Positions 1 to 24,000 of a DNA stretch of 24,000 bases are shown here, piece by piece (position 1 is the stretch's first letter; each line of letters starts with the position of its first letter). This DNA comes from Ruania halotolerans (GTDB lineage: Bacteria; Actinomycetota; Actinomycetes; Actinomycetales; Beutenbergiaceae), in NCBI RefSeq assembly GCF_021049285.1, contig NZ_CP088017.1, forward strand, positions 1,289,380 to 1,313,379, read 5' to 3'. A program made the position numbers and the translations under genes. The notes under the pieces are model-generated. The model saw nothing but the letters and a program-made list of their open reading frames with translations. It did not search any database and had not been told where the DNA came from.

Positions 1-88
1 TGTCGGCCGTTGCAGCTGGCGGGACTCCTAGGCCCAGCGCAAGCGCGGTCAGTGCGACAGAAAAGGCCATCCGGCTTCGACGCCTCAC
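1..88 (-). CDS. 5' end of a secreted protein gene; only the signal peptide is visible and the gene continues past the window start
   Basis: GTG at 88..86 overlaps the TGA (87..85) of the upstream ORF as GTGA. The translation VRRRSRMAFSVALTALALGLGVPPAATAD has a basic n-region, a hydrophobic core and an A-x-A cleavage-like site. ATG at 70..68 is an alternative start. Confidence 0.45.
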   Translation of the reverse strand, partial: MRRRSRMAFSVALTALALGLGVPPAATAD

Positions 89-426: not shown

Positions 427-571
427 GTCTCCTCACTGCTCGTCGTCTCACGGCTTTCGACGTGCGGTACTGCCTCCTGCGACGGATCGATGTCGCAGCG
501 CGTTTGTCGCATCGCCATCTAGGAGGACACGCCACAGCAGGAAGGGTCACGCAGTTCTGCGAAAGTCGTCT

Positions 572-587
572 CCGACAGCGCTGTCGG
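572..587 (-). terminator. 16-bp perfect palindrome CCGACAGCGCTGTCGG, 14 nt downstream of the DUF58 stop; possible weak operon-end hairpin or operator
   Basis: Read directly. It would form a 6-bp stem with a 4-nt loop. No convincing U-tract follows, so its terminator function is uncertain. Confidence 0.3.
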
Positions 588-600
588 GTGGCAGGTGAGC

Positions 601-5004: not shown

Positions 5005-5008
5005 CGGC

Positions 5009-6241: not shown

Positions 6242-6329
6242 GGTGTTCCTCTCACGTCATGCGCTACTCCCGCCATCTTCGCACGAGCAACTCCCGCCGT
6301 CCGACGAGTGGAAGTGCGACGATAGGGAG

Positions 6330-10479: not shown

Positions 10480-10541
10480 CACCGGTATCCACAGATCCTC
10501 GTGCGGCCCGGCGCTGCTGCGGGCGGGCGGGCCATGCTGAG

Positions 10542-11351: not shown

Positions 11352-11542
11352 CGGCCGACAGTGGACTAGCGTCATGTCATGGAACTTCACCCCGGCCAGC
11401 GCCACCGAGAGAATCGGTGCCGAGCCGGGTTCAGGGGAGGTGATACTGCCTCGTAGCATGCCGCGCCGAGCAGGCGTGGCCATCCCGTCCCTCGGAGCCG
11501 TTGTGGCCTCGGGGAACACCTGAATGACCTGTGGAGGTCCCC

Positions 11543-12205
11543 ATGGAGATTGTCGTGGTCAGCCGTCACACCGAGGTGTCGGAGCGATTCCGACGCCACG
11601 TCGAGGAGAAGCTGGGCAAGGTCCCGCAGTTCTCTCCCTACGCTCAGCGCGTCGACGTCGAGGTGTCCCACGAGAACAACCCGCGTCTGGCAGAGAAGTC
11701 AGAGCGAGTCGAACTCACGGTGCGGGCCAAGGGCCCGGTGGTGCGAGCGGAGGCAGCTGCCTCGGACCGGTACGGTGCGCTCGACCTGGCCACAGCCAAG
11801 CTCCTTGAACGCCTACGCCGCGCGCGCGATCGGCGAAAAGACCACCACCACAGTCGTAAGGCTGCCCCACCCCCGGTCGTGCCCGATCTCGAACCGGTGG
11901 AGAGCGAGGTCGACACCCAGGACGACGGTTTCACACCTCAGGCCCCGAGTGAGCCCGGGGTGGCGGTCGAGGCTCAACTGGGCGATTCACCTGTGGTGAT
12001 CCGCCAGAAGGTGCACGAGACGGCGCCCATGACGGTGGACCAGGCGCTCGCGGAGATGGAACTCGTGGGCCACCCGTTCTTCCTGTTCATCGATTCGGAG
12101 ACGATGCAGCCGTGTGCCGTCTATAACCGGCGAGGCTGGACCTACGGTGTGATCCGGTTGAACTATGAGGCCACCGAAGTGGCCCACGCGGAGGCGACGG
12201 CCTGA
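11543..12205 (+). CDS. hpf: ribosome hibernation-promoting factor, long form
   Basis: MEIVVVSRHTEVSERFRRHVEEKLGKV (sigma-54 modulation / S30EA N-domain), a charged linker, and the C-terminal dimerisation domain PVVIRQKVHETAPMTVDQALAEMELVGHPFFLFIDSET. GGAGG lies 5 nt upstream of ATG 11543. Confidence 0.93.
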   Translation: MEIVVVSRHTEVSERFRRHVEEKLGKVPQFSPYAQRVDVEVSHENNPRLAEKSERVELTVRAKGPVVRAEAAASDRYGALDLATAKLLERLRRARDRRKDHHHSRKAAPPPVVPDLEPVESEVDTQDDGFTPQAPSEPGVAVEAQLGDSPVVIRQKVHETAPMTVDQALAEMELVGHPFFLFIDSETMQPCAVYNRRGWTYGVIRLNYEATEVAHAEATA

Positions 12206-12230
12206 CGCTCCACCCCTGACGCGTTTCAGC

Positions 12231-12270
12231 GGCGCCGGTCGATCGTGAGGGTCGACCGGCGCCGTTGTCT
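12231..12270 (+). terminator. intrinsic terminator-like hairpin after hpf
   Basis: 12-bp perfect stem GGCGCCGGTCGA / TCGACCGGCGCC (12231..12242 and 12252..12263) with a 9-nt loop, followed by GTTGTCT. It lies 26 nt after the hpf stop. Confidence 0.6.
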
Positions 12271-12338
12271 GCCGGAGCGCGTTGCGCGCGTAGTCGGCCG
12301 ACAGGCTGATCGTCCTCGTCACCGCCGGGGGGAGATGG

Positions 12339-13595
12339 ATGTCGGTGCAATCTCCTACTGTGAGGCGCATGCCCCGCACCTTCACCCTCGGCCAGGCGCG
12401 CCGTATTGCCGTGGCCGCGCAGCTGCTCGACCGATCCACGCCCCGGCCGCAACGGCCGACCATGGCGCATCTGCAGCGCACCATCGACCGGTTGGGAGTG
12501 GTGCAGATCGACTCGGTGAACGTGCTCGCGCGTGCCCATCTGTTGCCGCTGCAGGCGCGCCTGGGCAGCTATGACCCCGCCCTGCTGGACCGGGCGACGC
12601 GGGGGACGCCGGCTCGCCCCCGGCGGTTGGTGGAGTACTGGGCACATGAGGCCTCCTACATCTCGCCCGAGACCTACCAGGCGCTGCGGTGGCGGATGGA
12701 CTCGCCACGGATGAGACGCCTGGACGAGCGCCTGTGGCGAGAGCACCCGGAGACGATGGACGCGGTCTTGGAGATCATCGCCTCCCACGGCCCGCTCACT
12801 GCCGCGCAGGTGCACGAGCGGCTCGGCCACCGCAGCGGCCCGCGGGTGGCGTGGGGGTGGAACTGGACTATCGCGAAGGAATCGCTTGAATCGCATTTCG
12901 CTCGCGGCCGGGTGATGAGTGCCCACCGCACTGCGCAGTTCGAACGCGCCTATGATCTGCCCGAACGGGTGTTACCACGATCGGTGCTTAGCGAAGTACC
13001 CGACCGAACGACGGCGATCCGCCAGCTGGTCTCGCTGGCTGCCCGGGCGCACGGGATCGGAACGGCACGATGCCTCGCCGACTATTTCCGCGTACCGGTG
13101 GCGCAGGCGCAGGAAGCGATCGCCCATTTGACGGCCGCCGGGGAGTTGGAGGAGGTCACGGTGCGCGGCTGGGATCGTGCGCTGGTGCTGCACACCGGTG
13201 CACGCCGCCCCCGGTCCACCCGGGCGCGGGCGCTGCTTGCCCCGTTCGACCCGCTGGTGTTCGAGCGTCGACGTCTCCTCGAACTCTTCGGAATGCATTA
13301 CCGCATCGGCATCTACACCCCGGCTGCGCAACGTACCTACGGCTACTACGTGCTCCCGTTTCTCCTCGGTCAGGATCTCGTGGCCCGCACGGATGTGAAA
13401 GCAGACCGTCGCGCGAGCGCATTGGTCGTGCGGACGGCGTTCTCCGAACCCGACGCCCCTGCCGAGACCGCGCGCGAGCTGGCCGCCGAGCTGCGCGAGC
13501 TGGCCGAGTGGCTCGATCTGACCGATGTGCGCCCTGCCAACGACATCCGGGGCGACCTTGCCGGCGCGCTCACGCGGGAACTCGCCGCTGACTGA
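12339..13595 (+). CDS. YcaQ/AlkZ-like winged-helix DNA glycosylase family protein (DUF1006)
   Basis: 418 aa. N-terminal LGQARRIAVAAQLL, and a C-terminal RIGIYTPAAQRTYGYYVLPFLLGQDLVARTDVKADRR characteristic of the YcaQ family. A G-rich SD lies 4 nt upstream of the ATG. Confidence 0.8.
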   Translation: MSVQSPTVRRMPRTFTLGQARRIAVAAQLLDRSTPRPQRPTMAHLQRTIDRLGVVQIDSVNVLARAHLLPLQARLGSYDPALLDRATRGTPARPRRLVEYWAHEASYISPETYQALRWRMDSPRMRRLDERLWREHPETMDAVLEIIASHGPLTAAQVHERLGHRSGPRVAWGWNWTIAKESLESHFARGRVMSAHRTAQFERAYDLPERVLPRSVLSEVPDRTTAIRQLVSLAARAHGIGTARCLADYFRVPVAQAQEAIAHLTAAGELEEVTVRGWDRALVLHTGARRPRSTRARALLAPFDPLVFERRRLLELFGMHYRIGIYTPAAQRTYGYYVLPFLLGQDLVARTDVKADRRASALVVRTAFSEPDAPAETARELAAELRELAEWLDLTDVRPANDIRGDLAGALTRELAAD

Positions 13596-13673: not shown

Positions 13674-13703
13674 TTGACAGTCCTGCGCCCAGTCAGCTAA
13701 TTT
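13674..13703 (+). promoter_or_regulatory. sigma-70-type promoter for the beta-propeller gene
   Basis: Perfect -35 TTGACA (13674..13679), an 18-nt spacer, and -10 TAATTT (13698..13703, fits TANNNT). It sits in a locally AT-rich patch 78 nt upstream of the ATG. Confidence 0.55.
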
Positions 13704-13715
13704 CGGTCCCGACCG
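13704..13715 (+). promoter_or_regulatory. candidate operator CGGTCCCGACCG (dyad CGGTC-N2-GACCG), copy 1
   Basis: It immediately follows the predicted -10 and so covers the expected transcription start. It has A/T-rich flanks (AATTT...GAAAA). An identical 12-mer occurs on the opposite strand at 20863..20874. Confidence 0.5.
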
Positions 13716-13780
13716 GAAAAGGTGCTTAGGGCCCGCTGCGGTCGCACGACACCCAGTCGATGATGACGAAGGAGTGCACG

Positions 13781-16069
13781 ATGAGAACACGACGATCCGC
13801 TGCGATCGCATGGGCGGCAGGAGCTGCCTTGGTACTGGGGGCCGCCGTCGGTGCACCGGCTTCGGCGAGCACGAGCCCGCCCTTGCCGGCCACCACTGAG
13901 GTGGCATCCTCGGCCACGGACCCCGTCACCGACCTCGGCGAGGCGGTGCGCAAGTCCCAGGTCCTCGCCTCGGCTACCGGCACTGCGCCTGACGGTGTTC
14001 CCTACGGCTACTACGTGGTCTCCGGCAACCAGAACGTCACGGCCGAATTCGCCGTCGTCGACCTGCGCACGGAGGAGACGGTGTTGCGCACGCGGATCCC
14101 TTACGGTGCCAGTAGTCAGCGCGCCCTGGCGATCTCGCCAGTGGACGGCACCGTGTATTTCGGAACCTCCGATGTGGGTCACATCTACCGCTATGTGCCG
14201 GGCGCGGACGATGTGGAGCATCTGGCTGAACTGCCCGATGGAGTGCGAGCGTGGGGCATGGCGGTCGACGCGGAGGGGACGCCGTGGTTCGGTGCCTATC
14301 CGACCGGGGCGCTGTACTCCCTCGACCCAGCCTCCGGTGTGGTCACCGATCACGGCCAGGCGATCGCGGGGGAGCAGTACGTCGTCGCCATCGCCCCAGT
14401 TGCGGACACGGTCTACGTCGGTACCGGAGCGAATGCCAAGCTCGCCGCGTTCGACCGGGCCTCGGGGGACTTCACCGAGATCGCGATGCCCGCCGGGCAC
14501 AGCGGAACGAACATCACTGCACTCGATGTGCGCGATGACCTGATGTTCGTCAGCACCACCAGCATGCATGTGCGCGACCTCGTGACCGGTGAGTGGGTCG
14601 ACGAGATCAGTGGAGCGAATGCCCGCGTCTCACCCATCTCTCCCACCGATCCGGACGCGGTCTACCTGCGCCAGGGGAGCGAGGTGAAGCGGTACGACCT
14701 CCGCACCGGTGCGATCACCGGAACGGGCAAGGCACCGAACGCCACTCCCGAATCATGGAGCTGGATCGAGCGTGACGATTCTGGTTACTTCCTCACCCTG
14801 ACCTACTGGAATCAGGGGCGTACCTATGGCTGGAACCTGGATGCCGGCGGGAGCTTCTACCTCGTTCCGGACGTGCAGGGCGCAGGGGCGCCGCTGATCA
14901 GCCTCGGCACCGGCCCCCTCGGCAACATCTACGCCGGTGCGTTCCTCAGCCCACCCGGATCGGGCAGGTACGACCCTGATGGAGAGGGCATTGAACTGTT
15001 GAACGGCACCAGCCAGGTGGAAGGGTGGGGCACCTTCGACGGCAACGTCGTCTTCGGCCGCTACCCGCAGGGTTCGGTCTACCTCTACGATCCGGAACAG
15101 CCCTGGAACTACGGGAGCAATCCCGACACGCCGCCGCTGGAGCTCGGCAACGGGGTGAGCCGACCGCAGTCGTTGATCGAGCTGACCGCCGTACCCGACA
15201 CCGTGGCTGTCGCCTCCGTTCCGAAGCCAGGTGAGCACGGTGGGGCGATCACCCTGTGGCAGCCGTACGCCGGAACACACACGGTCTACCGCAATGTGGT
15301 GCCAGATCAGACGCCGGTTGGCTTCGTCCAGAATGACGGCCTGCTGCTCGGTGGCACGTCCATCGACGGTGGTTACGGAATCGACCCGATCACCGACGAG
15401 GCGGTCCTGTTCGCATGGGATCCGGTGACCACCGAGACACTGTGGACCACGGCTCCCATTCCGGGGGCGCGCACGCTCGCGGGGCTCGCCGTCGACGACG
15501 ACGGGCACCTGTGGGGAGTCGCGGACAGTCGTACCGTGTTCGAGTTCGACCTCGAGACCAAGCAGGTGCTGCGCACGGTCACGATCGACGCGAACGCCTC
15601 CATCGACAGGTTCGGTGACAACGACCGGCTGCTGTTCGACCACGGCCGACTGTTTGGATCCGTGGCGGGCCGGCTCTTCGTGCTGGATCAGGTCACCGAT
15701 GAGGTGACGAGCCTTTACGGTGCAGGCAGCGGTCGCGAGGACTCCACCACCCACGTGCACGAACTCGCCCGCGACCGCTACGGCGATCTGTACGTCATCG
15801 GGGCGAGCACCCGTCTTGTCCGGTATGCCCTGCCCGAGGATGTGACGGCCCCCGAGGTCACGGCACGCCACCGCGGTGCAGCCGTGTGGCTGGAGGCCTC
15901 GGACGGGCACGACGACGCACCACGGATCGATTACCGGATCGACGGAGGCGAGTGGATGAGCGACGACGGCGGCCGTCCGATCGTGGTGCGACCCGGTGCG
16001 CAGTTGGAGTACCGCGCGATCGACGAGGCGTGGAACTCCTCGTCGGTGGAGCATTTCACCGGTGGATGA
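13781..16069 (+). CDS. secreted tandem beta-propeller repeat protein with a C-terminal Ig-like (OmpL47/chitobiase-C-like) domain; function unknown
   Basis: GAAGGAG lies 6 nt upstream of ATG 13781. Signal peptide MRTRRSAAIAWAAGAALVLGAAVGAPASAS, with an RR that could mean Tat export. About 12-14 repeats of the blade pattern, such as DGTVYFGTSDVGHIYRY, EGTPWFGAYPTGALYSLD, DGHLWGVADSRTVFEFD and YGDLYVIGASTRLVRY. The C-terminal tail IDYRIDGGEWMS...LEYRAIDEAWNSS resembles Ig-like accessory domains. Confidence 0.75.
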   Translation: MRTRRSAAIAWAAGAALVLGAAVGAPASASTSPPLPATTEVASSATDPVTDLGEAVRKSQVLASATGTAPDGVPYGYYVVSGNQNVTAEFAVVDLRTEETVLRTRIPYGASSQRALAISPVDGTVYFGTSDVGHIYRYVPGADDVEHLAELPDGVRAWGMAVDAEGTPWFGAYPTGALYSLDPASGVVTDHGQAIAGEQYVVAIAPVADTVYVGTGANAKLAAFDRASGDFTEIAMPAGHSGTNITALDVRDDLMFVSTTSMHVRDLVTGEWVDEISGANARVSPISPTDPDAVYLRQGSEVKRYDLRTGAITGTGKAPNATPESWSWIERDDSGYFLTLTYWNQGRTYGWNLDAGGSFYLVPDVQGAGAPLISLGTGPLGNIYAGAFLSPPGSGRYDPDGEGIELLNGTSQVEGWGTFDGNVVFGRYPQGSVYLYDPEQPWNYGSNPDTPPLELGNGVSRPQSLIELTAVPDTVAVASVPKPGEHGGAITLWQPYAGTHTVYRNVVPDQTPVGFVQNDGLLLGGTSIDGGYGIDPITDEAVLFAWDPVTTETLWTTAPIPGARTLAGLAVDDDGHLWGVADSRTVFEFDLETKQVLRTVTIDANASIDRFGDNDRLLFDHGRLFGSVAGRLFVLDQVTDEVTSLYGAGSGREDSTTHVHELARDRYGDLYVIGASTRLVRYALPEDVTAPEVTARHRGAAVWLEASDGHDDAPRIDYRIDGGEWMSDDGGRPIVVRPGAQLEYRAIDEAWNSSSVEHFTGG

Positions 16070-16120
16070 GATCACCTCAGCGCAGACTCTGAACAGAGAC
16101 TAAAAGCGCGCGCGCAGGTC

Positions 16121-16152
16121 CCGGCAGGGCGGCGGACATCCGTCGCCCTGCC
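16121..16152 (+). terminator. strong GC-rich hairpin after the beta-propeller gene (U-tract-less terminator candidate)
   Basis: CGGCAGGGCGGCGG-ACAT-CCGTCGCCCTGCCG forms a 14-bp stem (one G-U pair) with a 4-nt loop, 52 nt after the stop. No T-run follows, which is common in actinobacteria. Confidence 0.5.
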
Positions 16153-16258
16153 GTGTGCCGCCAGGCACGGGATGGCGCGTGGCGTGGGGTACCCCGCTCT
16201 CGCCGGGAGGCGTATGGCACGATGAAGCCGACCTGGTCAGGCGAGGAACGGGGGGTAG

Positions 16259-17485
16259 ATGACACCGGTCATCGGCGTGGTCGGCCCGGCAGACATCGTC
16301 CCCGGTGTCGCCCAGACATGCAGCACCATGTCCGGATACGACGTGATCCGCCTGCCCTACGTTCACGAGACCGAGACGCACGACATCGTGCGCGCGAATG
16401 TCGATTCGGTGGACGCGTGGCTGTTCACCGGAATCGTTCCTTACGTCCACGCCAAGGGGGCATCCACCCGGCCCGCGGCGTTCGTGGACTACACGCGCGA
16501 GACCGTCCTGCGCTCATGGGTGCAGTTGGCCCGGGCAGGGCGGGATATCGCGCGTACCTCGATCGACACCGTCGGAGCACCGGAACTACGGGAGATCGCT
16601 GACGCTGTCGGCCTTCCCTCCGATCGCCCCAGATCTCTGCCCCATCGCGTCGACCAGCGGGTGGAGCAGCTGATCGATTTCCACCGGAAGAACCCTGACG
16701 CGTCGTGGACGGCGATCACCTGCGTGTCGAGCGTCTATGACGCGCTCCGCGACGACATCTCGATTATCCGACTGGTGCCGTCGGAGAATGCGATCCGGAC
16801 GGCCGTCACCAGGTTGTCGTTCGCCGTGAACACCCATGTGAACGAGGACTCTCAGGTCGCCGTCGGTCTGCTGGTTGCCGACGACATGGCCGGTGCCGCG
16901 CCGTTGGTCCGACAACAGGCGAGGGCGCTGGCAGGAACCGTTGCCACTGCCGATACCGGTGAACTGCTGCTGGTGACCACGCGCGGCGCGCTGGCGATCG
17001 CGTCCTACCAGTTCACCCAGCCGCCGTTGCTGCGGCGGTTGGATGAGGTCGGTATCACGGCCTCGGCGGGATTCGGAGTCGGACGCACCGCCTTGGAGGC
17101 CGAACGCCTGGCGCGCCGGGCGCTGAACCGCGCCGAGACCTACCCCGGTTCGACCGCGGTCGCCTCATTCCGGAACGACGTCGACCTCGTTCTCGGCGCC
17201 GCCGGCGGCCATACCGCGATTGCCCAGGATTCACCTGCACTGAGCACGATCGCCACCCGCGTCGGAGTAGCCCTGCAGACGCTGACGCGCCTGCGCGAGC
17301 TGGCTCAGGCACATCCGGATGAGCCGGTGACCTCCCGCCTGGTTGCCGAGGAGCTCAACGTTCAGCAGCGCACGGCTCGCCGCATGCTGGCACGCCTGGA
17401 GCACGGGGGATACGCCGAACGCACGGGACGTGAGGCGCTCGGATCAAGCGGGCGTCCGCTCACCCGGTACACGCTGCACCTGTGA
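16259..17485 (+). CDS. putative transcriptional regulator with a C-terminal HTH; possibly PucR/CdaR-like with a degenerate GGDEF-like middle domain
   Basis: 408 aa. The C-terminus TSRLVAEELNVQQRTARRMLARLEHGGYAERTG...GRPLTRYTL reads as HTH plus wing. The segment QVAVGLLVADD...ITASAGFGVGRTALEAERLARRALNRAE resembles the end of a GGDEF-fold domain. The N-terminal VIGVVGPADIV...DAWLFTGIVPY looks like an alpha/beta sensor domain. The family assignment is tentative. Confidence 0.6.
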   Translation: MTPVIGVVGPADIVPGVAQTCSTMSGYDVIRLPYVHETETHDIVRANVDSVDAWLFTGIVPYVHAKGASTRPAAFVDYTRETVLRSWVQLARAGRDIARTSIDTVGAPELREIADAVGLPSDRPRSLPHRVDQRVEQLIDFHRKNPDASWTAITCVSSVYDALRDDISIIRLVPSENAIRTAVTRLSFAVNTHVNEDSQVAVGLLVADDMAGAAPLVRQQARALAGTVATADTGELLLVTTRGALAIASYQFTQPPLLRRLDEVGITASAGFGVGRTALEAERLARRALNRAETYPGSTAVASFRNDVDLVLGAAGGHTAIAQDSPALSTIATRVGVALQTLTRLRELAQAHPDEPVTSRLVAEELNVQQRTARRMLARLEHGGYAERTGREALGSSGRPLTRYTLHL

Positions 17486-17550
17486 CTCGCGTGCGAGTGG
17501 GCTGCGATGGATTGACGGCCGCCGCCTCGGATCGATGTCCGTGGTGAACA

Positions 17551-18426
17551 TCACCCCTTGATCCCGCTCGCTGCGACGCTGTTGACGATGTAGCGCTGCA
17601 ACACAGCGAAGACGAGCAGGCATGGGATCACCGTGATCGCGGCGGCCGCCATCAGCCTCGCCTGCGAGACGGCCTCCTGGTTCAGGCTGGCCAGGCCGAC
17701 CGTGAGGGTGCGCATCTCGTCGGTCTGGGCGATGATCAGCGGCCACAGGAAGTCGTTCCAATGCCAGAGGAAGACGAAGATGCCGAGGGTGGCCAGAATC
17801 GGCGTGGTCAGTGGCAGGACGATGCGCCAGAAGATCGTCCACTCGCGCGCACCGTCGATCTTCGCTGCCTCGAACAACTCATCGGGCAGCCCCATGATGA
17901 ACTGCCGCATCAAGAACACCGCCTGTGAGTTCGCCAGGGTGGGAACGATGAGCCCCCAGAAGGTGTCGATACCCTCGAGCTTGGCGACCAGAACGAACAG
18001 CGGGATGATCGTCGCCTGCGTCGGAACCATGAGCGTGGCGAGGAAGGACCAGAAGACGATCTCGCGACCAGGGAATCGCTTCTTCGCGAACGCGTAGCCG
18101 GCCATCGCTGCTGTGATGAGCACGAGCACGACCGAGACGATCGAGTAGATCGCGGTGTTCGCCGTCCAACGCAGGAAGTTCCGTGCCGAGAGCACCGCGA
18201 TGAGGTTGTCCAGTGTCCACTCCTGGGGCAGCTGGAACGGGATGGTCCGGGCGCCCTCCGGGCTGAGCGCGAGGATGAAGACAGCGAGGAAGGGCACCAC
18301 CGTGCCGAAAGCGAGCACGGCGGCGACCAGGATCGTCCCTGGTCGGATGCTGCTGCGGCGCCGGCGCAGCGTCGGCTCCGAGGCCCTTCGCCCCTCAGTT
18401 CCCGGTCGGGTGAGCATGGCGGTCAT
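17551..18426 (-). CDS. carbohydrate ABC transporter permease (MalG-like, CUT1)
   Basis: 291 aa with 6 TM helices and an EAA-loop-like AAKIDGAREWTIFWRIVLPL. ATGA overlap with the upstream permease stop. Confidence 0.92.
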   Translation of the reverse strand: MTAMLTRPGTEGRRASEPTLRRRRSSIRPGTILVAAVLAFGTVVPFLAVFILALSPEGARTIPFQLPQEWTLDNLIAVLSARNFLRWTANTAIYSIVSVVLVLITAAMAGYAFAKKRFPGREIVFWSFLATLMVPTQATIIPLFVLVAKLEGIDTFWGLIVPTLANSQAVFLMRQFIMGLPDELFEAAKIDGAREWTIFWRIVLPLTTPILATLGIFVFLWHWNDFLWPLIIAQTDEMRTLTVGLASLNQEAVSQARLMAAAAITVIPCLLVFAVLQRYIVNSVAASGIKG

Positions 18427-19346
18427 GAGTTGCTCCGATCGAGGAAGCCGCGCTGGATCAAGGAGATGAGGAACACGATCAGGAAGATCGCCACGCCGAT
18501 CGCCGCGGCATAGCCGAAGTCGAAGAACTTGAAGCCTTGGTCATACAGCGCGTAGACGAGCGAATAGGACGCACGAGAGGGTCCCCCTCCGGTCATCACA
18601 TAGATGGTGTCGAACACCTGGAATGCCGCGATCGTCTCGATCACGAGCACGAAGAAGACCACGGGTCGCAGCAGTGGCAACGTGACGCGGACGAACCGCT
18701 GCGTCGCGTTGGCGCCGTCGAGAGTGGCCGCCTCGAGCAGATCCTCCGGAATGTTCTTCAGCCCGGCGAGCAGGATCAGCATCGAATAGCCGAACCCACG
18801 CCATGCCGAGACGACCGCGAGAGAGGTGAGGACCTGAAGCTGATTCCCGGTCAGGAAGGGGTACGGATCGATACCGGCATCGGCGATCAGACCGTTGATC
18901 AAGCCGTCGGTGGCAAAGATCCACAGCCAGATCACACCGGCGAGTACGAACGAGGTCACATAGGGCAGGAAGAGCGCACCGCGGAAGAAGCCGGTTCCCC
19001 AGACGAGGCGGTTCAGCACCAGGGCCGTCGCCATCGAGACGACAACGACGAGCGGCACGTAGATCGCGGCGTAGACCAGCGTCGTGATCAGCGCGCCATG
19101 GAAGACCTCGTCGCCGGCCATCCGCGCGTAGTTGTCGAACCACACCACGGAGAAGTCCCCGCTGAGCTGATAGTCGGTCAGGCTCATCCCGACTGCGCCG
19201 AGGCTTGGCACGAATCGGAAGATGATGAATAGCACCAGCATGGGCAGGACGAACAGGATGCCAGCCCACATTCCGCTACGGGTGGCGGCGCTCGGCCGTC
19301 GGCCCGCGCGGCGCGTCGGCCGCGGTGGAGCAGTGGTCGCGGTCAT
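18423..19346 (-). CDS. sugar ABC transporter permease (MalF-like, CUT1)
   Basis: 307 aa with an EAA loop EAATLDGANATQRFVRVTLPLLRP. SD GGGAG lies upstream of ATG 19346. Confidence 0.92.
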   Translation of the reverse strand: MTATTAPPRPTRRAGRRPSAATRSGMWAGILFVLPMLVLFIIFRFVPSLGAVGMSLTDYQLSGDFSVVWFDNYARMAGDEVFHGALITTLVYAAIYVPLVVVVSMATALVLNRLVWGTGFFRGALFLPYVTSFVLAGVIWLWIFATDGLINGLIADAGIDPYPFLTGNQLQVLTSLAVVSAWRGFGYSMLILLAGLKNIPEDLLEAATLDGANATQRFVRVTLPLLRPVVFFVLVIETIAAFQVFDTIYVMTGGGPSRASYSLVYALYDQGFKFFDFGYAAAIGVAIFLIVFLISLIQRGFLDRSNS

Positions 19347-19367
19347 GGTCTCCCTCTCAAGTCGTGG

Positions 19368-19397
19368 CTGCGGGGCGCATCACTGTGCGCCCCGCAG
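19368..19397 (-). promoter_or_regulatory. intercistronic stem-loop between the SBP and first permease genes
   Basis: 12-bp perfect stem CTGCGGGGCGCA / TGCGCCCCGCAG with a 6-nt loop, 10 nt after the SBP stop and 21 nt before the permease ATG. Confidence 0.6.
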
Positions 19398-19406
19398 CGT
19401 GGTGCG

Positions 19407-20657
19407 TCACAGGCGAGAGATCGCGTCCCGAGCCTCGGCCGCGGCGTCATCCATGGCCTGCTGAGCATCTTTCTGCCCTTGCAGCGCGGACTGGATGTGC
19501 GTGGCCAGGATCGACATCACCTGACGTGCCCCCGGTACGGCTTCGCCCGGGTTGGAGACGTCCAGCGAATCGAACAGCGCCTGAGTCGGCTCGTCCTCGA
19601 TCGCGATCTCAACGTCAGTACGTGAGGGGAACCACCCGGATGCCTCGTACAACTCCGACTGCGCCTGCGGTGCCGCGAGCGCCCGTGCCACCTCGAGCGC
19701 TGCATCCTCGTCCTCGTTGATCGTGGTCCGCGAGATCAGGCCCGGCGTGCCGAATGAGGCTTGGACGGTACCGGTGAGCGGGGCGCCCACGGCGACGTTC
19801 TCCTCGCCGATCGCGGCCTGCATCTGCTCGATCGAGGCTCCCGCCATCGCGTACGACATGGCCGCCGTGCCGAGTGCGAGGGGGCCGCCCTCGATCGTGT
19901 TGTTCTTCGTGGCCGCATCAGCCGGGAGGCCGCCGGCCTCCTGCAGGTCGAGCAGGAACTGCAGAGCGGCGACTCCCTCGGGACCATCGAAGGCGACATC
20001 GCTGCCGTCCTCGGTGAACACAGTCCCGCCCGCCTGCCACAGCAGCGGATAGAAGCTCATGTTCAGCGTGGTTTCGGCGGAACCGGCGTAGTCCATCACG
20101 GCCACGCCGTTGTCGGCGAGCGCAGGTGCCGCAGCGAGCACGTCCTCCCAGGTCTGGGGCAGTTCGTCGATGCCTGCTTCGTCGAACAATGCCTCGTTGT
20201 AGGCCGTGGTGTTGGCGGTCTGGTAGATCGGCACCCCGTAGATCTCACCGTCGAACGTTCCCCCGGCGAGGGCGCCCTCGTAGTACGAGGCGGGATCGTC
20301 GATGGCGTCGCCGATAGGCAAGAGGCCGCCGGTGGAGTAGAAATTCATGGCGAGGTCGGGCACGAGAAGTACGAGATCTGGCCCCGTTCCGGCTGCGATC
20401 GCCGTGCCGATCTTCTCTTCGCGATCACTCCAAGGCTGCAACTCGATCGTGAGGTCGATATCGGTGTGCTCGGCCTCGAAGTCGGCCTCGAAGCCCTCCC
20501 AGTAGGTGCGGTTGGCGTCCTCGTCGCCAATGACGGGATACATCCACAGGGTGATCTCGGACGTGCCGGTGCCGGCATCGCCGCCGGAACTACACGCTGT
20601 CAGTGCAAGCGCAGCGGCGGTACCGAGCGCGAACGCGGTGGTGGTATGGGTTTTCAT
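19407..20657 (-). CDS. extracellular solute-binding lipoprotein of a CUT1 sugar ABC transporter
   Basis: GGAGG lies 5 nt upstream of ATG 20657. MKTHTTTAFALGTAAALALTACSSGG is a signal peptide with lipobox LTAC. 416 aa with typical family-1 SBP composition. The ORF-track start at 20798 is an upstream extension. Confidence 0.9.
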   Translation of the reverse strand: MKTHTTTAFALGTAAALALTACSSGGDAGTGTSEITLWMYPVIGDEDANRTYWEGFEADFEAEHTDIDLTIELQPWSDREEKIGTAIAAGTGPDLVLLVPDLAMNFYSTGGLLPIGDAIDDPASYYEGALAGGTFDGEIYGVPIYQTANTTAYNEALFDEAGIDELPQTWEDVLAAAPALADNGVAVMDYAGSAETTLNMSFYPLLWQAGGTVFTEDGSDVAFDGPEGVAALQFLLDLQEAGGLPADAATKNNTIEGGPLALGTAAMSYAMAGASIEQMQAAIGEENVAVGAPLTGTVQASFGTPGLISRTTINEDEDAALEVARALAAPQAQSELYEASGWFPSRTDVEIAIEDEPTQALFDSLDVSNPGEAVPGARQVMSILATHIQSALQGQKDAQQAMDDAAAEARDAISRL

Positions 20658-20852
20658 CAGAACCTCCTGGGTGTGGGCGATGCGTCCTCGCATCGGGGGA
20701 GTCGAGGCGGTCATCTCAGCGAGCCGCTGAGATCGTTGGTGACACGTGGCCAAACGGATGGACAGTCGCTGCTCCAGCTCTGCTTCGCCGAGCGGCACTC
20801 AGGTGCTGTCGTCATCGTCATGCCCTCCTGGTGTGGCTCCGTCGGCAGTGGC

Positions 20853-20884
20853 TTCATATTTACGGTCGGGACCGTTATTGTCAA
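20853..20884. promoter_or_regulatory. interdigitated divergent promoters sharing one spacer that holds operator copy 2 (CGGTCGGGACCG, 20863..20874)
   Basis: Plus strand: TTCATA (20853..20858), 17 nt, TATTGT (20876..20881), about 40 nt upstream of the SDR gene ATG. Minus strand: perfect TTGACA (20884..20879), 16-17 nt, TAAATAT (20862..20856), pointing at the ABC operon. The 12-mer between them is the exact reverse complement of 13704..13715. Confidence 0.5.
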
Positions 20885-20922
20885 ACGGCGACGATGACGA
20901 TCGAGTAACGGAAAGGACACGT

Positions 20923-21765
20923 ATGCGCATCCTGTTGATCGGTGGAGGGGGTGTGGTCGGAACCGCACTGGCGTTGCGGATGCGAGACCATCACCGCATC
21001 ACCGTGCTGGATCGCCGAAAGGTGAGCATCGCGGGCGTGCACAGCCTGATGGCCGATGCCACCGACCATGACGTGCTCGCAGCGCACATCCGTGGCTCGC
21101 AGGCGGTGGTGCACCTCGCGGCGATCGTGCCGCGCGGTGACACCGAGGCGCGATCGAAGCAGCTCGACGCAGCAATGCGCGTGAACGTCGGTAGCGTTGC
21201 CCAGGCGCTGGCGATCAGTGTGCGCGAGGCGGTGCCCTCCTTCGTGCACATCAGTTCGCTCTCGGTGTTCCGCGAGTTCGGCACCCGACGCATTCCGGCC
21301 AGTGCCCCGCCGGACGCCATCGCGCCTTATGGGCTCACCAAACGCCTCGCCGAGAATGTGTGCGCCGCGCTGGCCGACGAGCCGACGACGGTCACCTCAC
21401 TCCGGCTCGCATTCCCCAGCAGGGCCGGAGATTGGCCACAGTGGCGCTCGCCGTCAGCTGATGACGATGCTCCGGCCCGCTCCCTCCAACTTGCCGATGG
21501 CACGACGTACCCGGCGCTGCACCCGGACGACCTCGCCGATGCAGTCAACCGTGCCCTGCATCGGCGAGGTCCGTACGCGGCGATCGCACTGGCCCACCCG
21601 GCGACCATCGAGGACGAGTCGGCGCATCGTCTGCTCGGCTGGTCACCTCGGTACTTCACGCCGCAGGGGTCCTCGCGAGCTCAGCGTCCTCATTCCGTCC
21701 CGCCGCCCGCGGGTGAAGTCGTCGCGCCACTGAGATCCGCCGCGACTGCGCGCGACGGCGGCTGA
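20923..21765 (+). CDS. NAD(P)-dependent epimerase/dehydratase-family (SDR) protein
   Basis: [17 protein letters not shown] (GxxGxxG Rossmann motif), catalytic YxxxK as [11 protein letters not shown], and a C-terminal [17 protein letters not shown] upstream of ATG 20923. 280 aa. The ORF-track start at 20746 is an extension. Confidence 0.85.
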
Positions 21766-21989
21766 TCGGCCGCTCCTGCGCACACCACGCCGTCGGCGCT
21801 GCCCTGGTGAGGTGCCAGGACCACGGTGACCTGACATCCCGGCGCACCGGCCGCCGTCGGGCATGCCCGCCTTTCCGCTCGCAGCGATCCTGTGGCGCAC
21901 CCGCCACCGGGCGCGGATGCTCTCGCTTACGATGGGAGCTGGCGGTGTCGTTCGGCGCCCCACGACGACTGACCCGACCGGGAGTGTGC

Positions 21990-24000
21990 GTGCCTGCAAT
22001 CCTCGACAAGATCCTGCGGATGGGCGAGGGCAAGATCCTCAAGAAGCTGCAGGGCCTCACCGCCCAGGTCAACGCGCTCGAAGACTCGGTGACTGATCTC
22101 ACCGACGAGGAGTTGCGCGCAGAGACCGAGGCCTTCAAGGAGCGCGTGGCTGACGGCGAGTCCCTCGACTCGTTGCTCCCTGAGGCGTTCGCCGTGGTGC
22201 GTGAAGCCGCGGTCCGCACGCTCGGCCAGCGGCACTTCGATGTCCAGATCATGGGCGGCGCCGCCCTGCACCTGGGCAACATCGCCGAGATGAAGACCGG
22301 TGAAGGCAAGACGTTGGTGGCCACGCTGCCCGCGTACCTGAACGCGCTCAGCGGCAAGGGCGTGCACATCGTCACCGTGAACGATTACCTCGCCAAGTAC
22401 CAGAGTGAGCTGATGGGGCGCGTGTTCCGGTTCCTCGGGCTGACCACGGGGGTGATCCTGTCCGGGCAGAAGCCTGATGAACGGCGCGAGATGTACGCCG
22501 CGGACATCACCTACGGCACGAACAACGAGTTCGGCTTCGACTTCCTCCGCGACAATATGGCCTGGTCCACGAGCGAACTGGTCCAGCGCGGGCACAACAT
22601 GGCGATTGTGGACGAGGTGGACTCGATCCTCATCGACGAGGCCCGCACTCCGCTGATCATCTCCGGCCCGTCCTCGGGCGATGTGAACAAGTGGTACGTG
22701 GAGTTCGCACGGATTGTGCGCACGATGTCCGCCGAGACCGACTACGAAGTCGACGAGAAGAAGCGCACCATCGGCATCCTCGAACCGGGTATCGAGAAGG
22801 TCGAGGATCACCTCGGCATCGACAACCTCTACGAGTCGCTGAACACGCCGCTGATCGGCTTCCTGAACAACGCCGTCAAGGCCAAGGAACTGTTCTCCCG
22901 GGACAAGGACTACGTGGTGATGAACGGTGAGCTACTCATCGTCGATCAGCACACCGGCCGTATCTTGCCGGGCCGCCGATTCAACGAGGGAATGCACCAG
23001 GCACTCGAGGCGAAGGAAGGGGTGACGATCAAGGCGGAGAACCAGACGCTGGCCACGATCACCCTGCAGAACTACTTCCGCCGCTACGCCACCCTTTCCG
23101 GGATGACCGGGACGGCCATGACCGAGGCCGCGGAGTTCCAGGGCACCTATGAGGTGGGCGTGGTGCCGATCCCGCCGAACCGGCCGATGGCCCGGATCGA
23201 CCAGTCGGACTTCGTGTACAAGTCCGAGCTGGCCAAGTTCGAGGCGGTCGTCGAGGACATCGTCGAGCGGCACGCGGCGGGGCAGCCGGTGCTCGTGGGA
23301 ACCACGAGTGTGGAGAAGTCTGAGCTGCTCTCGAAGATGCTGAAGAAGAAGCGGGTCCCGCACGAGGTGCTGAACGCGAAGCAGCACGACCGTGAGGCAT
23401 CCATCGTGGCGATGGCTGGGCGCAAGGGAGCTGTCACGGTCGCCACGAACATGGCCGGTCGCGGTACCGACATCATGCTCGGCGGTAACGCTGAGCACCT
23501 CGCCATCGAGGCGCTCGCGAAGCAGGGCCTGGACGCCCGCGATTCGCCTGAGGAGTACGAGGACGCGTGGCCGGCGGCCCTGGAGAAGGCGCAGGCCTCG
23601 GTGGCGGCAGAGCACGATGAGGTCACCGAACTCGGCGGGCTCTACGTCCTCGGTACCGAACGGCACGAATCGCGCCGGATCGACAACCAGCTGCGCGGCC
23701 GGTCGGGGCGGCAGGGTGACCCGGGGGAGTCCCGGTTCTACCTCTCCCTCGAGGACGACCTGATGCGCATGTTCAACTCCGCGATGGCGGAGCGGTTCAT
23801 GGGTTCATCCTTTCCTGATGATGTGCCACTCGAGTCGAAGCTGGTCAGCCGCGGCATCGAAAGCGCCCAAGGTCAGGTGGAGCGGCGCAACCAGGAGATT
23901 CGCAAGAACGTCCTCAAGTACGACGATGTCCTCTCCCGCCAGCGTGAGGTGGTCTACAGCACGCGGCACGAGCTCCTCAAGGGCGGTGACCTACACGAAC
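21990..24000 (+). CDS. secA: preprotein translocase ATPase SecA (N-terminal ~670 codons; continues beyond the window)
   Basis: Hand translation from GTG 21990 (GGGAG SD 5 nt upstream) gives [20 protein letters not shown]...[33 protein letters not shown]...[21 protein letters not shown]...[14 protein letters not shown]...[45 protein letters not shown]. The frame is open to the window end. It is absent from the ORF track only because no stop lies in the window. Confidence 0.97.

What the first reader, a model, noticed from the sequence alone, without database searches (positions are those of the whole stretch)
13674..20884. Identical 12-nt dyad CGGTCCCGACCG at two promoters: a putative private regulon linking a secreted beta-propeller, an ABC importer and an SDR enzyme
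- **Two exact copies.** The 12-mer CGGTCCCGACCG (arms CGGTC/GACCG, 2-nt spacer) occurs at 13704..13715 on the plus strand. Its exact reverse complement occurs at 20863..20874.
- **Shared context.** Both copies lie in intergenic DNA, in short AT-rich patches of a ~70% GC genome. Their flanks are similar when oriented alike (AAT[T/A][T/A]-motif-[G/T]AAA), and each sits close to a perfect TTGACA -35 box.
- **Repressor-type positions.** Copy 1 directly follows the -10 and overlaps the expected start site. Copy 2 fills the -35/-10 spacer.
- **Chance expectation.** A specified 12-mer is expected about 0.003 times by chance in 48 kb of two-strand sequence.
- **Candidate regulator.** The atypical 408-aa HTH regulator (16259..17485) is encoded between the two sites and is the obvious cognate candidate.
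Basis: partly seen in the sequence, partly recalled or inferred. Interest (0 to 1): 0.72.

Follow-up and report, generated by a model that had tools for sequence, protein, structure and literature searches.

The report
Conserved operator of an uncharacterised regulator family
The two identical 12-base dyads are almost certainly binding sites for the neighbouring 408-residue DNA-binding protein, a member of a widespread but unstudied actinobacterial regulator family that most likely switches off a sugar-uptake and breakdown gene cluster until its substrate appears.

Summary
CGGTCCCGACCG occurs exactly at 13704-13715 (+) and 20863-20874 (-), both intergenic and both embedded in promoter-like sequence.

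The pair alone is not statistically remarkable. Repeated 5-2-5 dyads arise about 0.4 times per simulated window. Comparative evidence makes it real:
- The dyad sits at the orthologous promoters in two other Ruania species and in Polymorphospora.
- A 20-bp palindrome, consensus ATTACGGTCnnGACCGTAAT, lies 14-100 nt upstream of cluster genes in all eight loci fetched only by homology to the 408-aa protein.

The regulator (Ruania halotolerans, annotated hypothetical) has a new architecture: a PrpR_N-like sensor, a GGDEF/cyclase-like domain and a C-terminal winged helix. Pfam covers only the helix-turn-helix.

The operators overlap the -10/+1 region (site 1) and the shared spacer of two face-to-face divergent promoters (site 2). 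This points to ligand-relieved repression of a secreted twin-propeller protein, a sugar ABC importer and an SDR enzyme. Binding, the sign of regulation and the inducer are untested.

This is a new variant of a known kind, of moderate interest.

The parts
13674..13679 (+). -35 box TTGACA of the promoter of the twin-propeller gene
   Evidence: Read directly. TTGACA, the 18-nt spacing and TAATTT are conserved in R. rhizosphaerae and R. alkalisoli, while the spacer sequence differs. No TSS data.
13698..13703 (+). -10-like hexamer TAATTT (TANNNT type), overlapping the left flank of operator O1
   Evidence: Conserved in three Ruania species. Not called by the TATAAT-based scanner.
13700..13719 (.). 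Operator O1: 20-bp palindrome ATTTCGGTCCCGACCGGAAA (core dyad 13704-13715). It covers the -10 3' end and the expected transcription start.
   Evidence: PWM score 25.8, second best in the window. Orthologous sites at L001 7497 and L130 ~9924.
13781..16069 (+). Gene for a secreted 762-aa tandem beta-propeller protein with a C-terminal Ig-like domain; regulon member
   Evidence: Signal-peptide-like N-terminus. AF2 pLDDT 91; best fold matches are the Bacteroides HTCS glycan-sensor ectodomains BT4663/BT4673/BT3049. Homologues are preceded by the palindrome even when unlinked, as at Nonomuraea L017, L049 and L117.
16122..16153 (+). GC-rich hairpin (14-bp stem, 4-nt loop) downstream of the propeller gene; likely terminator separating it from the regulator gene
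   Evidence: Read from the sequence. Not called by the T-tail-based scanner. This is inference.
16259..17485 (+). Gene for the 408-aa candidate cognate regulator: PrpR_N-like sensor (res 1-195), GGDEF/cyclase-like domain (200-315), winged HTH (328-408)
   Evidence: AF2 pLDDT 86. Foldseek matches 2q5c/2pju, 3bre/PleD/Ma1120. Pfam hits only HTH families. Recognition-helix residues R371-R375 and R379-E381 are invariant in 45 homologues. 100% identical to a hypothetical protein of Ruania halotolerans.
17551..20657 (-). ABC importer operon: two permeases (17551-18426, 18423-19346) and a CUT1-type sugar-binding protein (19407-20657)
   Evidence: Pfam BPD_transp_1 x2, SBP_bac_1/8; NCBIfam carbohydrate SBP relatives. 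The same operon follows the palindrome in all related loci.
20658..20855 (-). About 200-nt leader between the operator/promoter and the SBP start codon. It holds a frameshifted remnant (about 20760-20823) of the 5' end of an epimerase-like gene deleted in this species.
   Evidence: Window 20760-20934 aligns to L001 20752-20928 (77%) and window 20593-20732 to the L001 SBP start region. Remnant peptide 'EAELEQRLS' matches 'EEALEHRLS' of the R. rhizosphaerae gene.
20859..20878 (.). Operator O2: 20-bp palindrome TTTACGGTCGGGACCGTTAT (core dyad 20863-20874), shared by two divergent promoters
   Evidence: PWM score 28.5, best in the window. Orthologous sites at L001 20853, L003 16629 and L007 7120.
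20856..20884 (-). Promoter of the ABC operon: -35 TTGACA (20884-20879), 17-nt spacer filled by O2, -10-like AAATAT (20861-20856)
   Evidence: The whole block TTGACA-(A/T)TAACGGnCCnGnnCCGTAAATATGA is conserved in Ruania and Polymorphospora. No TSS data.
20853..20881 (+). Promoter of the SDR gene: -35-like TTCATA (20853-20858), 17-nt spacer filled by O2, -10 TATTGT (20876-20881). It overlaps the ABC promoter face to face.
   Evidence: TA(T/A)TGT is conserved at the same place in R. rhizosphaerae, Polymorphospora and Agrococcus. Inference, no TSS data.
20923..21765 (+). Gene for a 280-aa extended-SDR (NAD-dependent epimerase/dehydratase family) enzyme; regulon member
   Evidence: Pfam Epimerase 1.5e-16, RmlD_sub_bind. 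The same gene is divergent from the operator in Ruania, Polymorphospora and Agrococcus loci.

Best explanation
The two dyads are the cores of two 20-bp palindromic operators (consensus ATTACGGTC-nn-GACCGTAAT). They are bound by a dimer of the 408-aa protein encoded between them.

That protein belongs to an uncharacterised actinobacterial family of one-component regulators. It has an N-terminal PrpR_N-like ligand-sensing domain, a degenerate GGDEF/cyclase-like middle domain and a C-terminal winged helix-turn-helix.

Without inducer the protein sits on O1 and O2 and blocks RNA polymerase. O1 covers the -10 3' end and the transcription start of the secreted twin-propeller gene. O2 fills the common spacer of the overlapping, divergent promoters of the sugar ABC importer operon and the SDR gene.

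A small molecule derived from the imported carbohydrate binds the sensor domain and releases the protein, inducing all three units together.

- **Shown here:** the sites, their conservation, their promoter-proximal position, their tight genomic association with the regulator family and its gene cluster, and the domain architecture.
- **Inferred:** physical binding, dimer stoichiometry, repression rather than activation, and the inducer.
For: 1. **Conservation at orthologous promoters.** The dyad is conserved in R. rhizosphaerae (L001 7501-7512, 20857-20868), R. alkalisoli (L130) and Polymorphospora (L003). The central two bases and surrounding DNA vary (CC, GG, CG, TG) while the arms stay fixed, the pattern expected for a dimeric protein site.
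2. **Regulator to motif.**
 - In eight loci chosen only by protein homology (157 kb), GGTCnnGACC (<=1 mismatch, AT-rich flanks) occurs 26 times, against 5.1 +/- 2.4 in block shuffles. Twenty of the 26 lie in the 10% of DNA that is intergenic.
 - 21 of 22 PWM hits scoring >=15 lie 14-100 nt upstream of a cluster gene start. The one exception lies in the 5' part of a probably over-extended call of the propeller-family gene.
3. **Motif to regulator.**
 - 39 stretches contain a homologue of the regulator, and 66 contain the regulator and/or conserved cluster genes.
 - Three more sites lie directly upstream of unlinked homologues of the propeller gene.
 - Non-actinobacterial hits are chance; 16 fall in rpmA coding sequence.
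4. **Only two strong sites in the window.** PWM scores are 28.5 and 25.8; the next best is 11.9.
5. **No alternative regulator.** No other transcription-factor gene is consistently present in these clusters.
6. **Conserved DNA-reading residues.** The wHTH recognition-helix residues are invariant across 45 homologues, matching one operator across genera.
7. **Promoter geometry.** In several genera the pattern is TTGAC(A/C)-17/18-TANNNT, with the -10 overlapping the operator's upstream flank or half-site. O2 lies inside the -35/-10 spacer. These are repressor-type positions.
8. **Not an RNA or structural element.** The dyad forms only a weak hairpin indistinguishable from shuffles, and there is no Rfam match.
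Against: - No binding, expression or TSS data exist. Promoter hexamers are predicted only, and the generic scanner called none.
- The pair of 12-mers is not significant by itself.
- The core GGTC-2-GACC is shared with the dre element of GntR/HutC regulators such as DasR (PMC4398421).
- The perfect palindrome also occurs upstream of dimethylglycine-oxidase-like genes in two actinobacteria, with no cluster gene in the stretch (L010, L077). Other proteins may therefore read similar sites.
- The regulator gene has no operator in Ruania.
- Regulators with the analogous sensor / GGDEF-like / C-terminal HTH layout (PucR/CdaR) are, from general knowledge, often activators.
- The rest of the R. halotolerans genome could not be scanned, so regulon size is unknown.
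Confidence: 0.75

Rival explanations
1. The sites are real operators, and the 408-aa protein binds them, but it acts as an activator or dual regulator rather than a simple repressor.
For: The layout (sensor domain, GGDEF-like domain, C-terminal HTH) parallels PucR/CdaR-type regulators, several of which are activators (general knowledge, not tested here). The -10 hexamers are weak, which could mean the promoters need help.
Against: The operators overlap the -10/+1 region or fill a 17-nt -35/-10 spacer next to perfect TTGACA boxes. In other genera they lie 18-32 nt from start codons. A classical activator could hardly work from these positions, because the spacer is not the long MerR type.
Confidence: 0.15
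2. The palindromes are operators of a different, unlinked regulator, for example a GntR/HutC (DasR-like) protein that recognises GGTC-nn-GACC cores. The 408-aa protein then has another target or role.
For: The DasR dre consensus A(G/C)TGGTCTAGACCA(G/C)T shares the GGTC-2-GACC core (PMC4398421). The same perfect palindrome lies upstream of unrelated DAO/GCV_T genes in L010 and L077.
Against: - The positions flanking the core are C/G here, against T/A in dre, and the TTA/TAA flanks differ.
- No GntR gene occurs in any of the ten loci.
- 66 of the 77 actinobacterial perfect sites sit with this cluster, and none were seen at GlcNAc or chitin genes.
- The motif follows the presence of the 408-aa family across at least nine genera.
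Confidence: 0.07
3. The repeat is a chance coincidence or a non-regulatory structural repeat (REP-like element, terminator or RNA hairpin).
For: A repeated 5-2-5 dyad arises about 0.4 times per simulated 24-kb window of this composition.
Against: - The dyad is conserved at orthologous promoters in other species and genera.
- The motif is enriched five-fold over shuffles and confined to promoter-proximal DNA.
- The hairpin energy is -3.3 to -3.7 kcal/mol, not different from shuffles.
- The window has only two copies, neither at a gene 3' end.
- There is no Rfam match.
Confidence: 0.02

Closest known systems
Local one-component repressors with palindromic operators that control sugar-catabolic clusters (LacI/GalR, ROK and GntR/HutC types such as DasR/NagR)
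   Same: - A 16-20-bp palindrome overlaps the core promoters of an ABC sugar importer and catabolic genes.
- The regulator is encoded in the cluster.
- One operator serves divergent promoters.
- Induction by a pathway metabolite is expected.
- The DasR dre A(G/C)TGGTCTAGACCA(G/C)T shares the GGTC-2-GACC core (PMC4398421).
   Different: - The protein has none of those families' domains.
- The HTH is C-terminal, and the sensor is PrpR_N-like followed by a GGDEF-like domain.
- The bases flanking the core are C/G with TTA/TAA arms, not T/A.
- The target genes are not GlcNAc or chitin genes.
PucR/CdaR family regulators (N-terminal sensor, GGDEF-like middle domain, C-terminal HTH)
   Same: The same three-part order is present: ligand-sensing N-terminal domain, GGDEF/cyclase-like fold and C-terminal DNA-binding domain. 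Size is similar (about 400-550 aa), and both control catabolic clusters.
   Different: - No Pfam match to PucR, Diacid_rec, CdaR_GGDEF or HTH_30 in any of 45 members, even at E<=1.
- The DNA-binding domain is a winged helix (weak Rrf2, MarR, IclR and GntR-type hits), not a Fis-like HTH_30.
- The sensor is PrpR_N-like.
PrpR and related sigma-54 enhancer-binding proteins (PrpR_N sensor domain; PDB 2pju, 2q5c)
   Same: Residues 1-195 superpose on the PrpR_N sensor fold (2q5c TM 0.79 normalised to the target; 2pju 0.58-0.74). This suggests binding of a small carboxylated metabolite.
   Different: There is no AAA+ sigma-54 activation domain and no Fis-type HTH. The operators overlap sigma-70-type promoters instead of lying upstream as enhancers.
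Periplasmic sensor ectodomains of Bacteroides hybrid two-component systems (BT4663, BT4673, BT3049), for the regulated 762-aa protein
   Same: The fold is a tandem beta-propeller plus a C-terminal beta-sandwich. These are the best Foldseek matches, E 1e-20 to 1e-17.
   Different: The protein is free and secreted, with no transmembrane, kinase or HTH part. Global TM scores are low (0.3) because the propellers are oriented differently. Its function (binding protein or enzyme) is unknown.

Membership tests
Palindromic operator of a cluster-encoded one-component regulator (generic class) | Dyad symmetry with conserved arms and a free centre | tested here: met
   The 21 aligned sites give ATTACGGTCnnGACCGTAAT. 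The arms GG(T/C)C / G(A/G)CC are near-invariant and the central two bases are variable.
Palindromic operator of a cluster-encoded one-component regulator (generic class) | Located in or overlapping promoters of the regulated genes | tested here: inconclusive
   All sites lie 14-100 nt upstream of start codons and overlap predicted -35/-10 elements that are themselves conserved. No transcription start has been mapped, and the generic scanner called no promoter.
Palindromic operator of a cluster-encoded one-component regulator (generic class) | Conserved at orthologous positions and co-occurring with the regulator gene across genomes | tested here: met
   Regulator to motif: 8 of 8 independent loci. 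Motif to regulator: 39 of 120 stretches carry the regulator, and 66 of the 77 actinobacterial stretches carry the regulator and/or cluster genes.
Palindromic operator of a cluster-encoded one-component regulator (generic class) | Specific physical binding by the regulator, and an effect on transcription | not testable with these tools
   Needs EMSA, footprinting or DAP-seq, plus expression analysis of a deletion mutant.
DasR/NagR dre element (GntR/HutC regulon) | 16-bp consensus A(G/C)TGGTCTAGACCA(G/C)T, with T/A flanking the GGTC..GACC core | tested here: not met
   The core is shared, but the flanking positions are C/G (log-odds +1.37 for C against -2.3 for T), followed by TTA/TAA. The dre consensus is from PMC4398421.
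DasR/NagR dre element (GntR/HutC regulon) | Association with GlcNAc/chitin genes and a GntR/HutC regulator | tested here: not met
   No GntR/UTRA gene and no nag, pts or chitinase genes occur in the ten loci or next to the perfect sites examined. Whole genomes were not searched for HutC regulators.
PucR/CdaR transcription regulators | C-terminal HTH_30 (PF13556) DNA-binding domain | tested here: not met
   No hit in any of 45 members at E<=1. The C-terminus matches winged-helix families instead.
PucR/CdaR transcription regulators | GGDEF-like middle domain | tested here: inconclusive
   The fold of residues 200-315 matches GGDEF/class III cyclase domains (3bre, PleD, Ma1120), but there is no sequence match to CdaR_GGDEF PF17853.
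PucR/CdaR transcription regulators | N-terminal PucR or Diacid_rec sensor domain | tested here: not met
   No Pfam hit. The fold is PrpR_N-like.
PrpR-type sigma-54 enhancer-binding proteins | PrpR_N sensor, plus AAA+ sigma-54 interaction domain, plus Fis-type HTH | tested here: not met
   Only the sensor fold is present (2q5c TMt 0.79). There is no AAA+ domain in 408 residues, and the C-terminus is a wHTH.
REP-like extragenic palindromes / intrinsic terminators | Many copies, a stable hairpin, and a location at gene 3' ends | tested here: not met
   There are two copies in 24 kb, both at 5' ends. The hairpin is -3.3 to -3.7 kcal/mol, z -0.2 to -1.8. Copy number genome-wide could not be measured.

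The most novel reading that the evidence does not exclude
The 408-aa protein founds a previously undescribed class of bacterial one-component regulators. The class has at least 456 clusters at 50% identity and reaches from Actinomycetota into Bacillota. In it, a PrpR_N-type ligand sensor is coupled through a degenerate GGDEF/cyclase-like domain to a C-terminal winged helix. Its conserved regulon would encode an unknown pathway for an extracellular glycan: a secreted twin-propeller protein of a new enzyme or binding family, a CUT1 importer, and extended-SDR, DHDPS-like, GFO/IDH/MocA, DegT and amidohydrolase-2 enzymes.
Probability: 0.4. Interest if true: 0.6.

Novelty: new variant of a known kind. 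Interest (0 to 1): 0.45.

Why it matters
- **A testable regulator-operator pair.** It gives an unannotated, widespread regulator family (all members 'hypothetical' or generic 'transcriptional regulator') a concrete DNA motif, a predicted regulon and a predicted mode of action. All of these can be checked with one EMSA or DAP-seq experiment and one deletion mutant.
- **An unknown carbohydrate pathway.** It flags a conserved actinobacterial gene cluster of unknown substrate, headed by a secreted tandem-propeller protein with no characterised relative. The regulator's ligand would be a direct handle on what the pathway degrades.
- **A possible tool.** The operator/regulator pair could serve as an orthogonal inducible switch for high-GC bacteria.
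- **Limits.** It is still an ordinary kind of system, a local regulator with a palindromic operator, so it does not overturn any concept.

Tried and rejected
- **Whole-locus palindrome census.** An unbiased census over whole loci, and even over intergenic DNA with 4-nt arms, is dominated by GC-rich codon or terminator palindromes. GGTC-2-GACC ranked only second. I switched to shuffle-controlled counting.
- **GATGACGA as a second motif.** This block is shared about 45 nt downstream of both dyads, and forms an 11-nt inverted repeat at 20809-20819 / 20890-20900. It is conserved only within Ruania, and one copy is the start (ATGACGA...) of a gene remnant. It was not pursued as a regulatory element.
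- **Natural knock-out test.** R. alkalisoli was tested as a possible natural loss of the regulator, but it has the regulator.
- **L002 11718 dyad hit.** This is the loop of a long terminator hairpin between convergent genes, not an operator.
- **Solved structures.** Sequence searches gave nothing useful for the propeller or the SDR, so the idea that the SDR is a uronate dehydrogenase remains only a guess.
- **Literature.** Searches for the motif strings, DUF6923, the domain combination and a uronate-pathway gene combination (uronate dehydrogenase, 5-dehydro-4-deoxyglucarate dehydratase) found nothing relevant.
- **RNA elements.** Rfam found none.
- **Regulon size.** Genome-wide regulon size in R. 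halotolerans could not be measured, because only patterns with >=14 specified bases can be scanned and only one scan was allowed.

Full report
**1. The observation**

CGGTCCCGACCG occurs exactly at 13704-13715 (+), and its reverse complement at 20863-20874. No other copy with 0 or 1 mismatch exists in the 24-kb window. Both copies are intergenic. Both lie in dips of GC content (0.59-0.62, against 0.678 for the window).

Oriented alike, the flanks are TAATTT-dyad-GAAAAG and CAATAA-dyad-TAAATA. Perfect TTGACA hexamers lie at 13674-13679 (+) and 20884-20879 (-).

The chance argument is not correct:
- At this composition the specific 12-mer is expected 0.025 times, not 0.003 times.
- Repeated 12-mers are common: 268 in the window, against 152 +/- 20 in Markov simulations.
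- A repeated 5-2-5 dyad turns up about 0.4 times per simulated window.

The pair on its own therefore proves nothing. Context and conservation have to carry the case.

**2. The genes**

The window comes from Ruania halotolerans, because the 408-aa product is 100% identical to a hypothetical protein of that species. Around the dyads lie these genes:

| Coordinates | Strand | Product | Evidence |
|---|---|---|---|
| ends 13595 | + | AlkZ-like protein | |
| 13781-16069 | + | secreted 762-aa protein | |
| 16259-17485 | + | 408-aa protein; only a C-terminal winged HTH is recognised by Pfam (res 333-391) | |
| 17551-20657 | - | two ABC permeases and a CUT1-type sugar-binding protein | |
| 20923-21765 | + | 280-aa extended-SDR / epimerase-family enzyme | |

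**3. Phylogenetic footprinting**

I fetched loci that encode homologues of the 408-aa protein.

In R. rhizosphaerae (76% identity) CGGTCCGGACCG occurs exactly twice, at the two orthologous places:
- Upstream of the propeller gene, in the block TTGACA-N18-TAATTT-dyad.
- Midway (54 nt from each start codon) between the divergent catabolic/ABC operon and the SDR gene, in the block ATATTTA-dyad-TTATTGTCAA.

R. alkalisoli shows the same upstream site. Polymorphospora (55% identity) has ATATTTACGGCCCGGACCGTTAATGTCAA at the operon/SDR divergence. It also has TTTAGGTCTGGACCGTAATTGAC between the propeller gene and the regulator gene.

Between species the hexamers and the dyad arms stay fixed. The -35/-10 spacer, the two central bases of the dyad and the downstream DNA all change.

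**4. From regulator to motif**

Loci from a metagenome contig, Micromonospora, Nonomuraea, Agrococcus, Pseudonocardia and Haloactinopolyspora each carry two to five such palindromes.

- In the eight independent loci (157 kb) the loose pattern GGTCnnGACC (<=1 mismatch, AT-rich flanks) occurs 26 times. Block-shuffled controls give 5.1 +/- 2.4 (maximum 11). Twenty of the 26 fall in the 10% of DNA that is intergenic.
- A symmetrised matrix from 21 sites gives ATTACGGTCCGGACCGTAAT.
- 21 of 22 hits scoring >=15 lie 14-100 nt upstream of the start of a cluster gene. The one exception lies in the 5' part of a probably over-extended call of the propeller-family gene.
- In the window only the two sites score high (28.5 and 25.8); the next best is 11.9.
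- In the Polymorphospora, Micromonospora, Nonomuraea, Agrococcus, Pseudonocardia and Haloactinopolyspora loci one site lies directly in front of the regulator gene, which implies autoregulation. No such site was found in the window or in R. rhizosphaerae. There a GC-rich hairpin (16122-16153) separates the regulator gene from the propeller gene.

**5. From motif to regulator**

I scanned one genome from each of 185,579 species for the perfect palindrome TTACGGTCNNGACCGTAA.

- 77 stretches are from Actinomycetota, by my count of the titles. They include Nonomuraea, Kribbella, Streptomyces, Streptosporangium, Microbispora, Sinosporangium, Rhizohabitans, Jiangella and Bailinhaonella.
- 39 stretches contain a homologue of the regulator inside the same 8-kb tile.
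- 66 contain the regulator and/or the conserved cluster genes.
- Three further Nonomuraea sites lie immediately upstream of unlinked 842-851-aa homologues of the window's propeller protein (27-31% identity). That gene family therefore belongs to the regulon even when it sits elsewhere in the genome.
- Sixteen non-actinobacterial hits are the coding sequence ...ERYGRDRK... of ribosomal protein L27. The rest are scattered single hits.
- Two actinobacterial hits (L010, L077) precede dimethylglycine-oxidase-like genes with no cluster gene in the tile. This is a caveat: similar palindromes may also be read by other proteins.

**6. The regulator**

An AlphaFold model built from 45 homologues (pLDDT 86) shows three parts:

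| Residues | Fold | Best matches |
|---|---|---|
| 1-195 | sensor domain of PrpR-type regulators | 2q5c, TM 0.79 to target; 2pju |
| 200-315 | GGDEF / class III cyclase fold | WspR 3bre, PleD, Ma1120 |
| 328-408 | winged helix | see below |

- By sequence the winged helix is only weakly similar to Rrf2/NsrR, MarR, IclR and GntR-type domains.
- No Pfam family covers residues 1-330 in any of the 45 members.
- The recognition-helix residues (R371 T372 A373 R374 R375 ... R379 L380 E381) are invariant. This fits one operator consensus across genera.
- The family is sizeable: 456 clusters at 50% identity with E<=1e-30 and 1069 with E<=1e-10, almost all full length.
- Members carry no informative names, and the family reaches Bacillota.
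- No paper in the searchable library mentions the motif or the architecture.

**7. Geometry and likely mechanism**

- **O1.** The -10-like TAATTT (13698-13703) lies 18 nt after TTGACA and overlaps the left flank of the 20-bp operator (13700-19). The core covers the expected start.
- **O2.** On the minus strand, TTGACA (20884-79), a 17-nt spacer and AAATAT (20861-56) form the ABC promoter. On the plus strand, TTCATA (20853-58), a 17-nt spacer and TATTGT (20876-81) form the SDR promoter. The two promoters overlap face to face, and the operator (20859-78) fills their common spacer. The TA(T/A)TGT element is conserved in Ruania, Polymorphospora and Agrococcus.
- **Other genera.** The promoters of the epimerase/NmrA-like and SBP operons read TTGAC(A/C)-17/18-TANNNT, with the -10 formed by, or abutting, the left half-site of the operator.

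These are positions from which a bound dimer would exclude RNA polymerase. I therefore favour repression relieved by a metabolite that binds the PrpR_N-like domain. Steps not shown are binding, dimerisation, the sign of regulation and the inducer. The dyad is not a meaningful hairpin, and no Rfam family matches.

**8. What the regulon encodes**

- Across genera the cluster combines the CUT1 importer with two DHDPS-family proteins, an epimerase/NmrA-like protein, GFO/IDH/MocA oxidoreductases, a DegT-type aminotransferase, amidohydrolase-2 proteins, the extended SDR and the large secreted protein. R. rhizosphaerae and R. alkalisoli add two sulfatases and a DUF1961 protein.
- The secreted protein models with pLDDT 91 as a tandem beta-propeller plus an Ig-like domain. 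Its best fold matches are the glycan-sensing ectodomains of Bacteroides hybrid two-component systems.
- The likely function is uptake and catabolism of an extracellular, possibly acidic or sulfated, glycan. The substrate is unknown.
- R. halotolerans has a reduced version. The 294-aa DHDPS-like gene, the sulfatases, DUF1961 and the epimerase-like and DHDPS genes of its relatives are absent from the window.
- The roughly 200-nt leader of the SBP gene still contains a frameshifted remnant of the 5' end of the lost epimerase-like gene. Both operators and the regulator have nevertheless been kept intact.

**9. Comparison with known systems**

Functionally this is a local regulator with a palindromic operator, like LacI, ROK or GntR/HutC systems.

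- The nearest known motif is the DasR dre, A(G/C)TGGTCTAGACCA(G/C)T (PMC4398421). It shares the GGTC-2-GACC core, but differs in the flanking bases, in target genes and in regulator type.
- The nearest architecture is PucR/CdaR (sensor, GGDEF-like domain, C-terminal HTH). None of that family's defining domains is detectable.
- The sensor resembles PrpR_N, but the protein lacks the AAA+ module of PrpR.

It should not be filed under any of these families.

**10. Verdict**

It is a new variant of a known kind: an uncharacterised regulator family with its operator and regulon predicted.

| Claim | Confidence |
|---|---|
| The dyads are protein-binding operators | about 0.9 |
| The 408-aa protein is the binder and represses | about 0.75 |
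| Interest | 0.45 |

Noticed in passing
window 20658-20855 (especially 20760-20823), minus strand: The long leader of the SBP gene contains a frameshifted remnant of the 5' end of an epimerase-like gene. In R. rhizosphaerae and Polymorphospora that gene is intact and sits, together with a DHDPS-family gene, between the operator and the SBP gene. R. halotolerans therefore suffered a ~2-kb deletion that fused the regulated promoter to the transporter operon.
   Followed up: yes
window 13761-13771 (+), 20809-20819 and 20890-20900: A GATGACGA-type block recurs in the 5' regions of all three regulated units. It forms a perfect 11-nt inverted repeat (TCGTCATCGTC / GACGATGACGA) with 70 nt between the arms around O2. 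It is partly conserved in other Ruania species but not in Polymorphospora. One copy is the start codon context of the gene remnant. Its meaning is unknown.
   Followed up: partly
window 16122-16153: A GC-rich hairpin (CGGCAGGGCGGCGG-acat-CCGTCGCCCTGCCG, 13/14 pairs) lies just after the propeller gene. It is a likely T-tail-less terminator, which implies the regulator gene has its own, operator-free promoter in this species.
   Followed up: no
window 20713-20733: A perfect 9-bp inverted repeat ATCTCAGCG/CGCTGAGAT (3-nt gap) lies inside the SBP leader, giving a small hairpin of unknown relevance.
   Followed up: no
L010 2649-2666 and L077 3729-3746: The same perfect palindrome TTACGGTCTAGACCGTAA lies directly upstream of 822/832-aa DAO + GCV_T (dimethylglycine-oxidase-like) genes in an Actinomycetes MAG and a Nakamurella MAG. 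L077 has a second GGTCTAGACC about 40 nt upstream. No gene of the cluster is in these stretches, so this may be a separate regulon that uses a near-identical site.
   Followed up: partly
L015, L018, L034, L057, L071, L087, L093, L121, L029, L047, L060, L081, L098, L105, L128, L044: The perfect palindrome also recurs in Ruminococcus, halophilic Bacillaceae and Alistipes. There it encodes the conserved ...FERYGRDRK... segment of ribosomal protein L27 (rpmA). These are coding coincidences, not regulatory sites.
   Followed up: yes
window 13781-16069: The regulated secreted protein is a tandem beta-propeller with a C-terminal Ig-like domain (AF2 pLDDT 91). Its closest solved folds are the glycan-sensing ectodomains of Bacteroides hybrid two-component systems. 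The family is annotated only as 'PQQ-like propeller', 'BamB' or 'streptogramin lyase', and its function is unknown.
   Followed up: partly
window 16259-17485 and its relatives P0210, P0321: Distant full-length relatives (430-460 aa) of the regulator occur in Bacillota (for example Brevibacillus). One is annotated 'GTP cyclohydrolase IIa', presumably because of the GGDEF/cyclase-like middle domain.
   Followed up: no
window 1-13595: Upstream of the cluster lies a conserved housekeeping block syntenic with R. rhizosphaerae and R. alkalisoli: MtrB-like kinase, LpqB, a phosphoribosyltransferase-like protein, the ribosome hibernation factor (11531-12205) and the AlkZ-like glycosylase (12339-13595). 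The relatives carry an extra 294-aa DHDPS-like gene, and in R. alkalisoli a transposase, between AlkZ and the propeller gene. Both are missing here.
   Followed up: partly
window 21927-22811 (-) and 22932-23666 (-): Two ORFs of 294 and 244 aa downstream of the SDR gene have no Pfam or NCBIfam match. They are not homologous to the 294-aa DHDPS-like protein of the relatives.
   Followed up: partly
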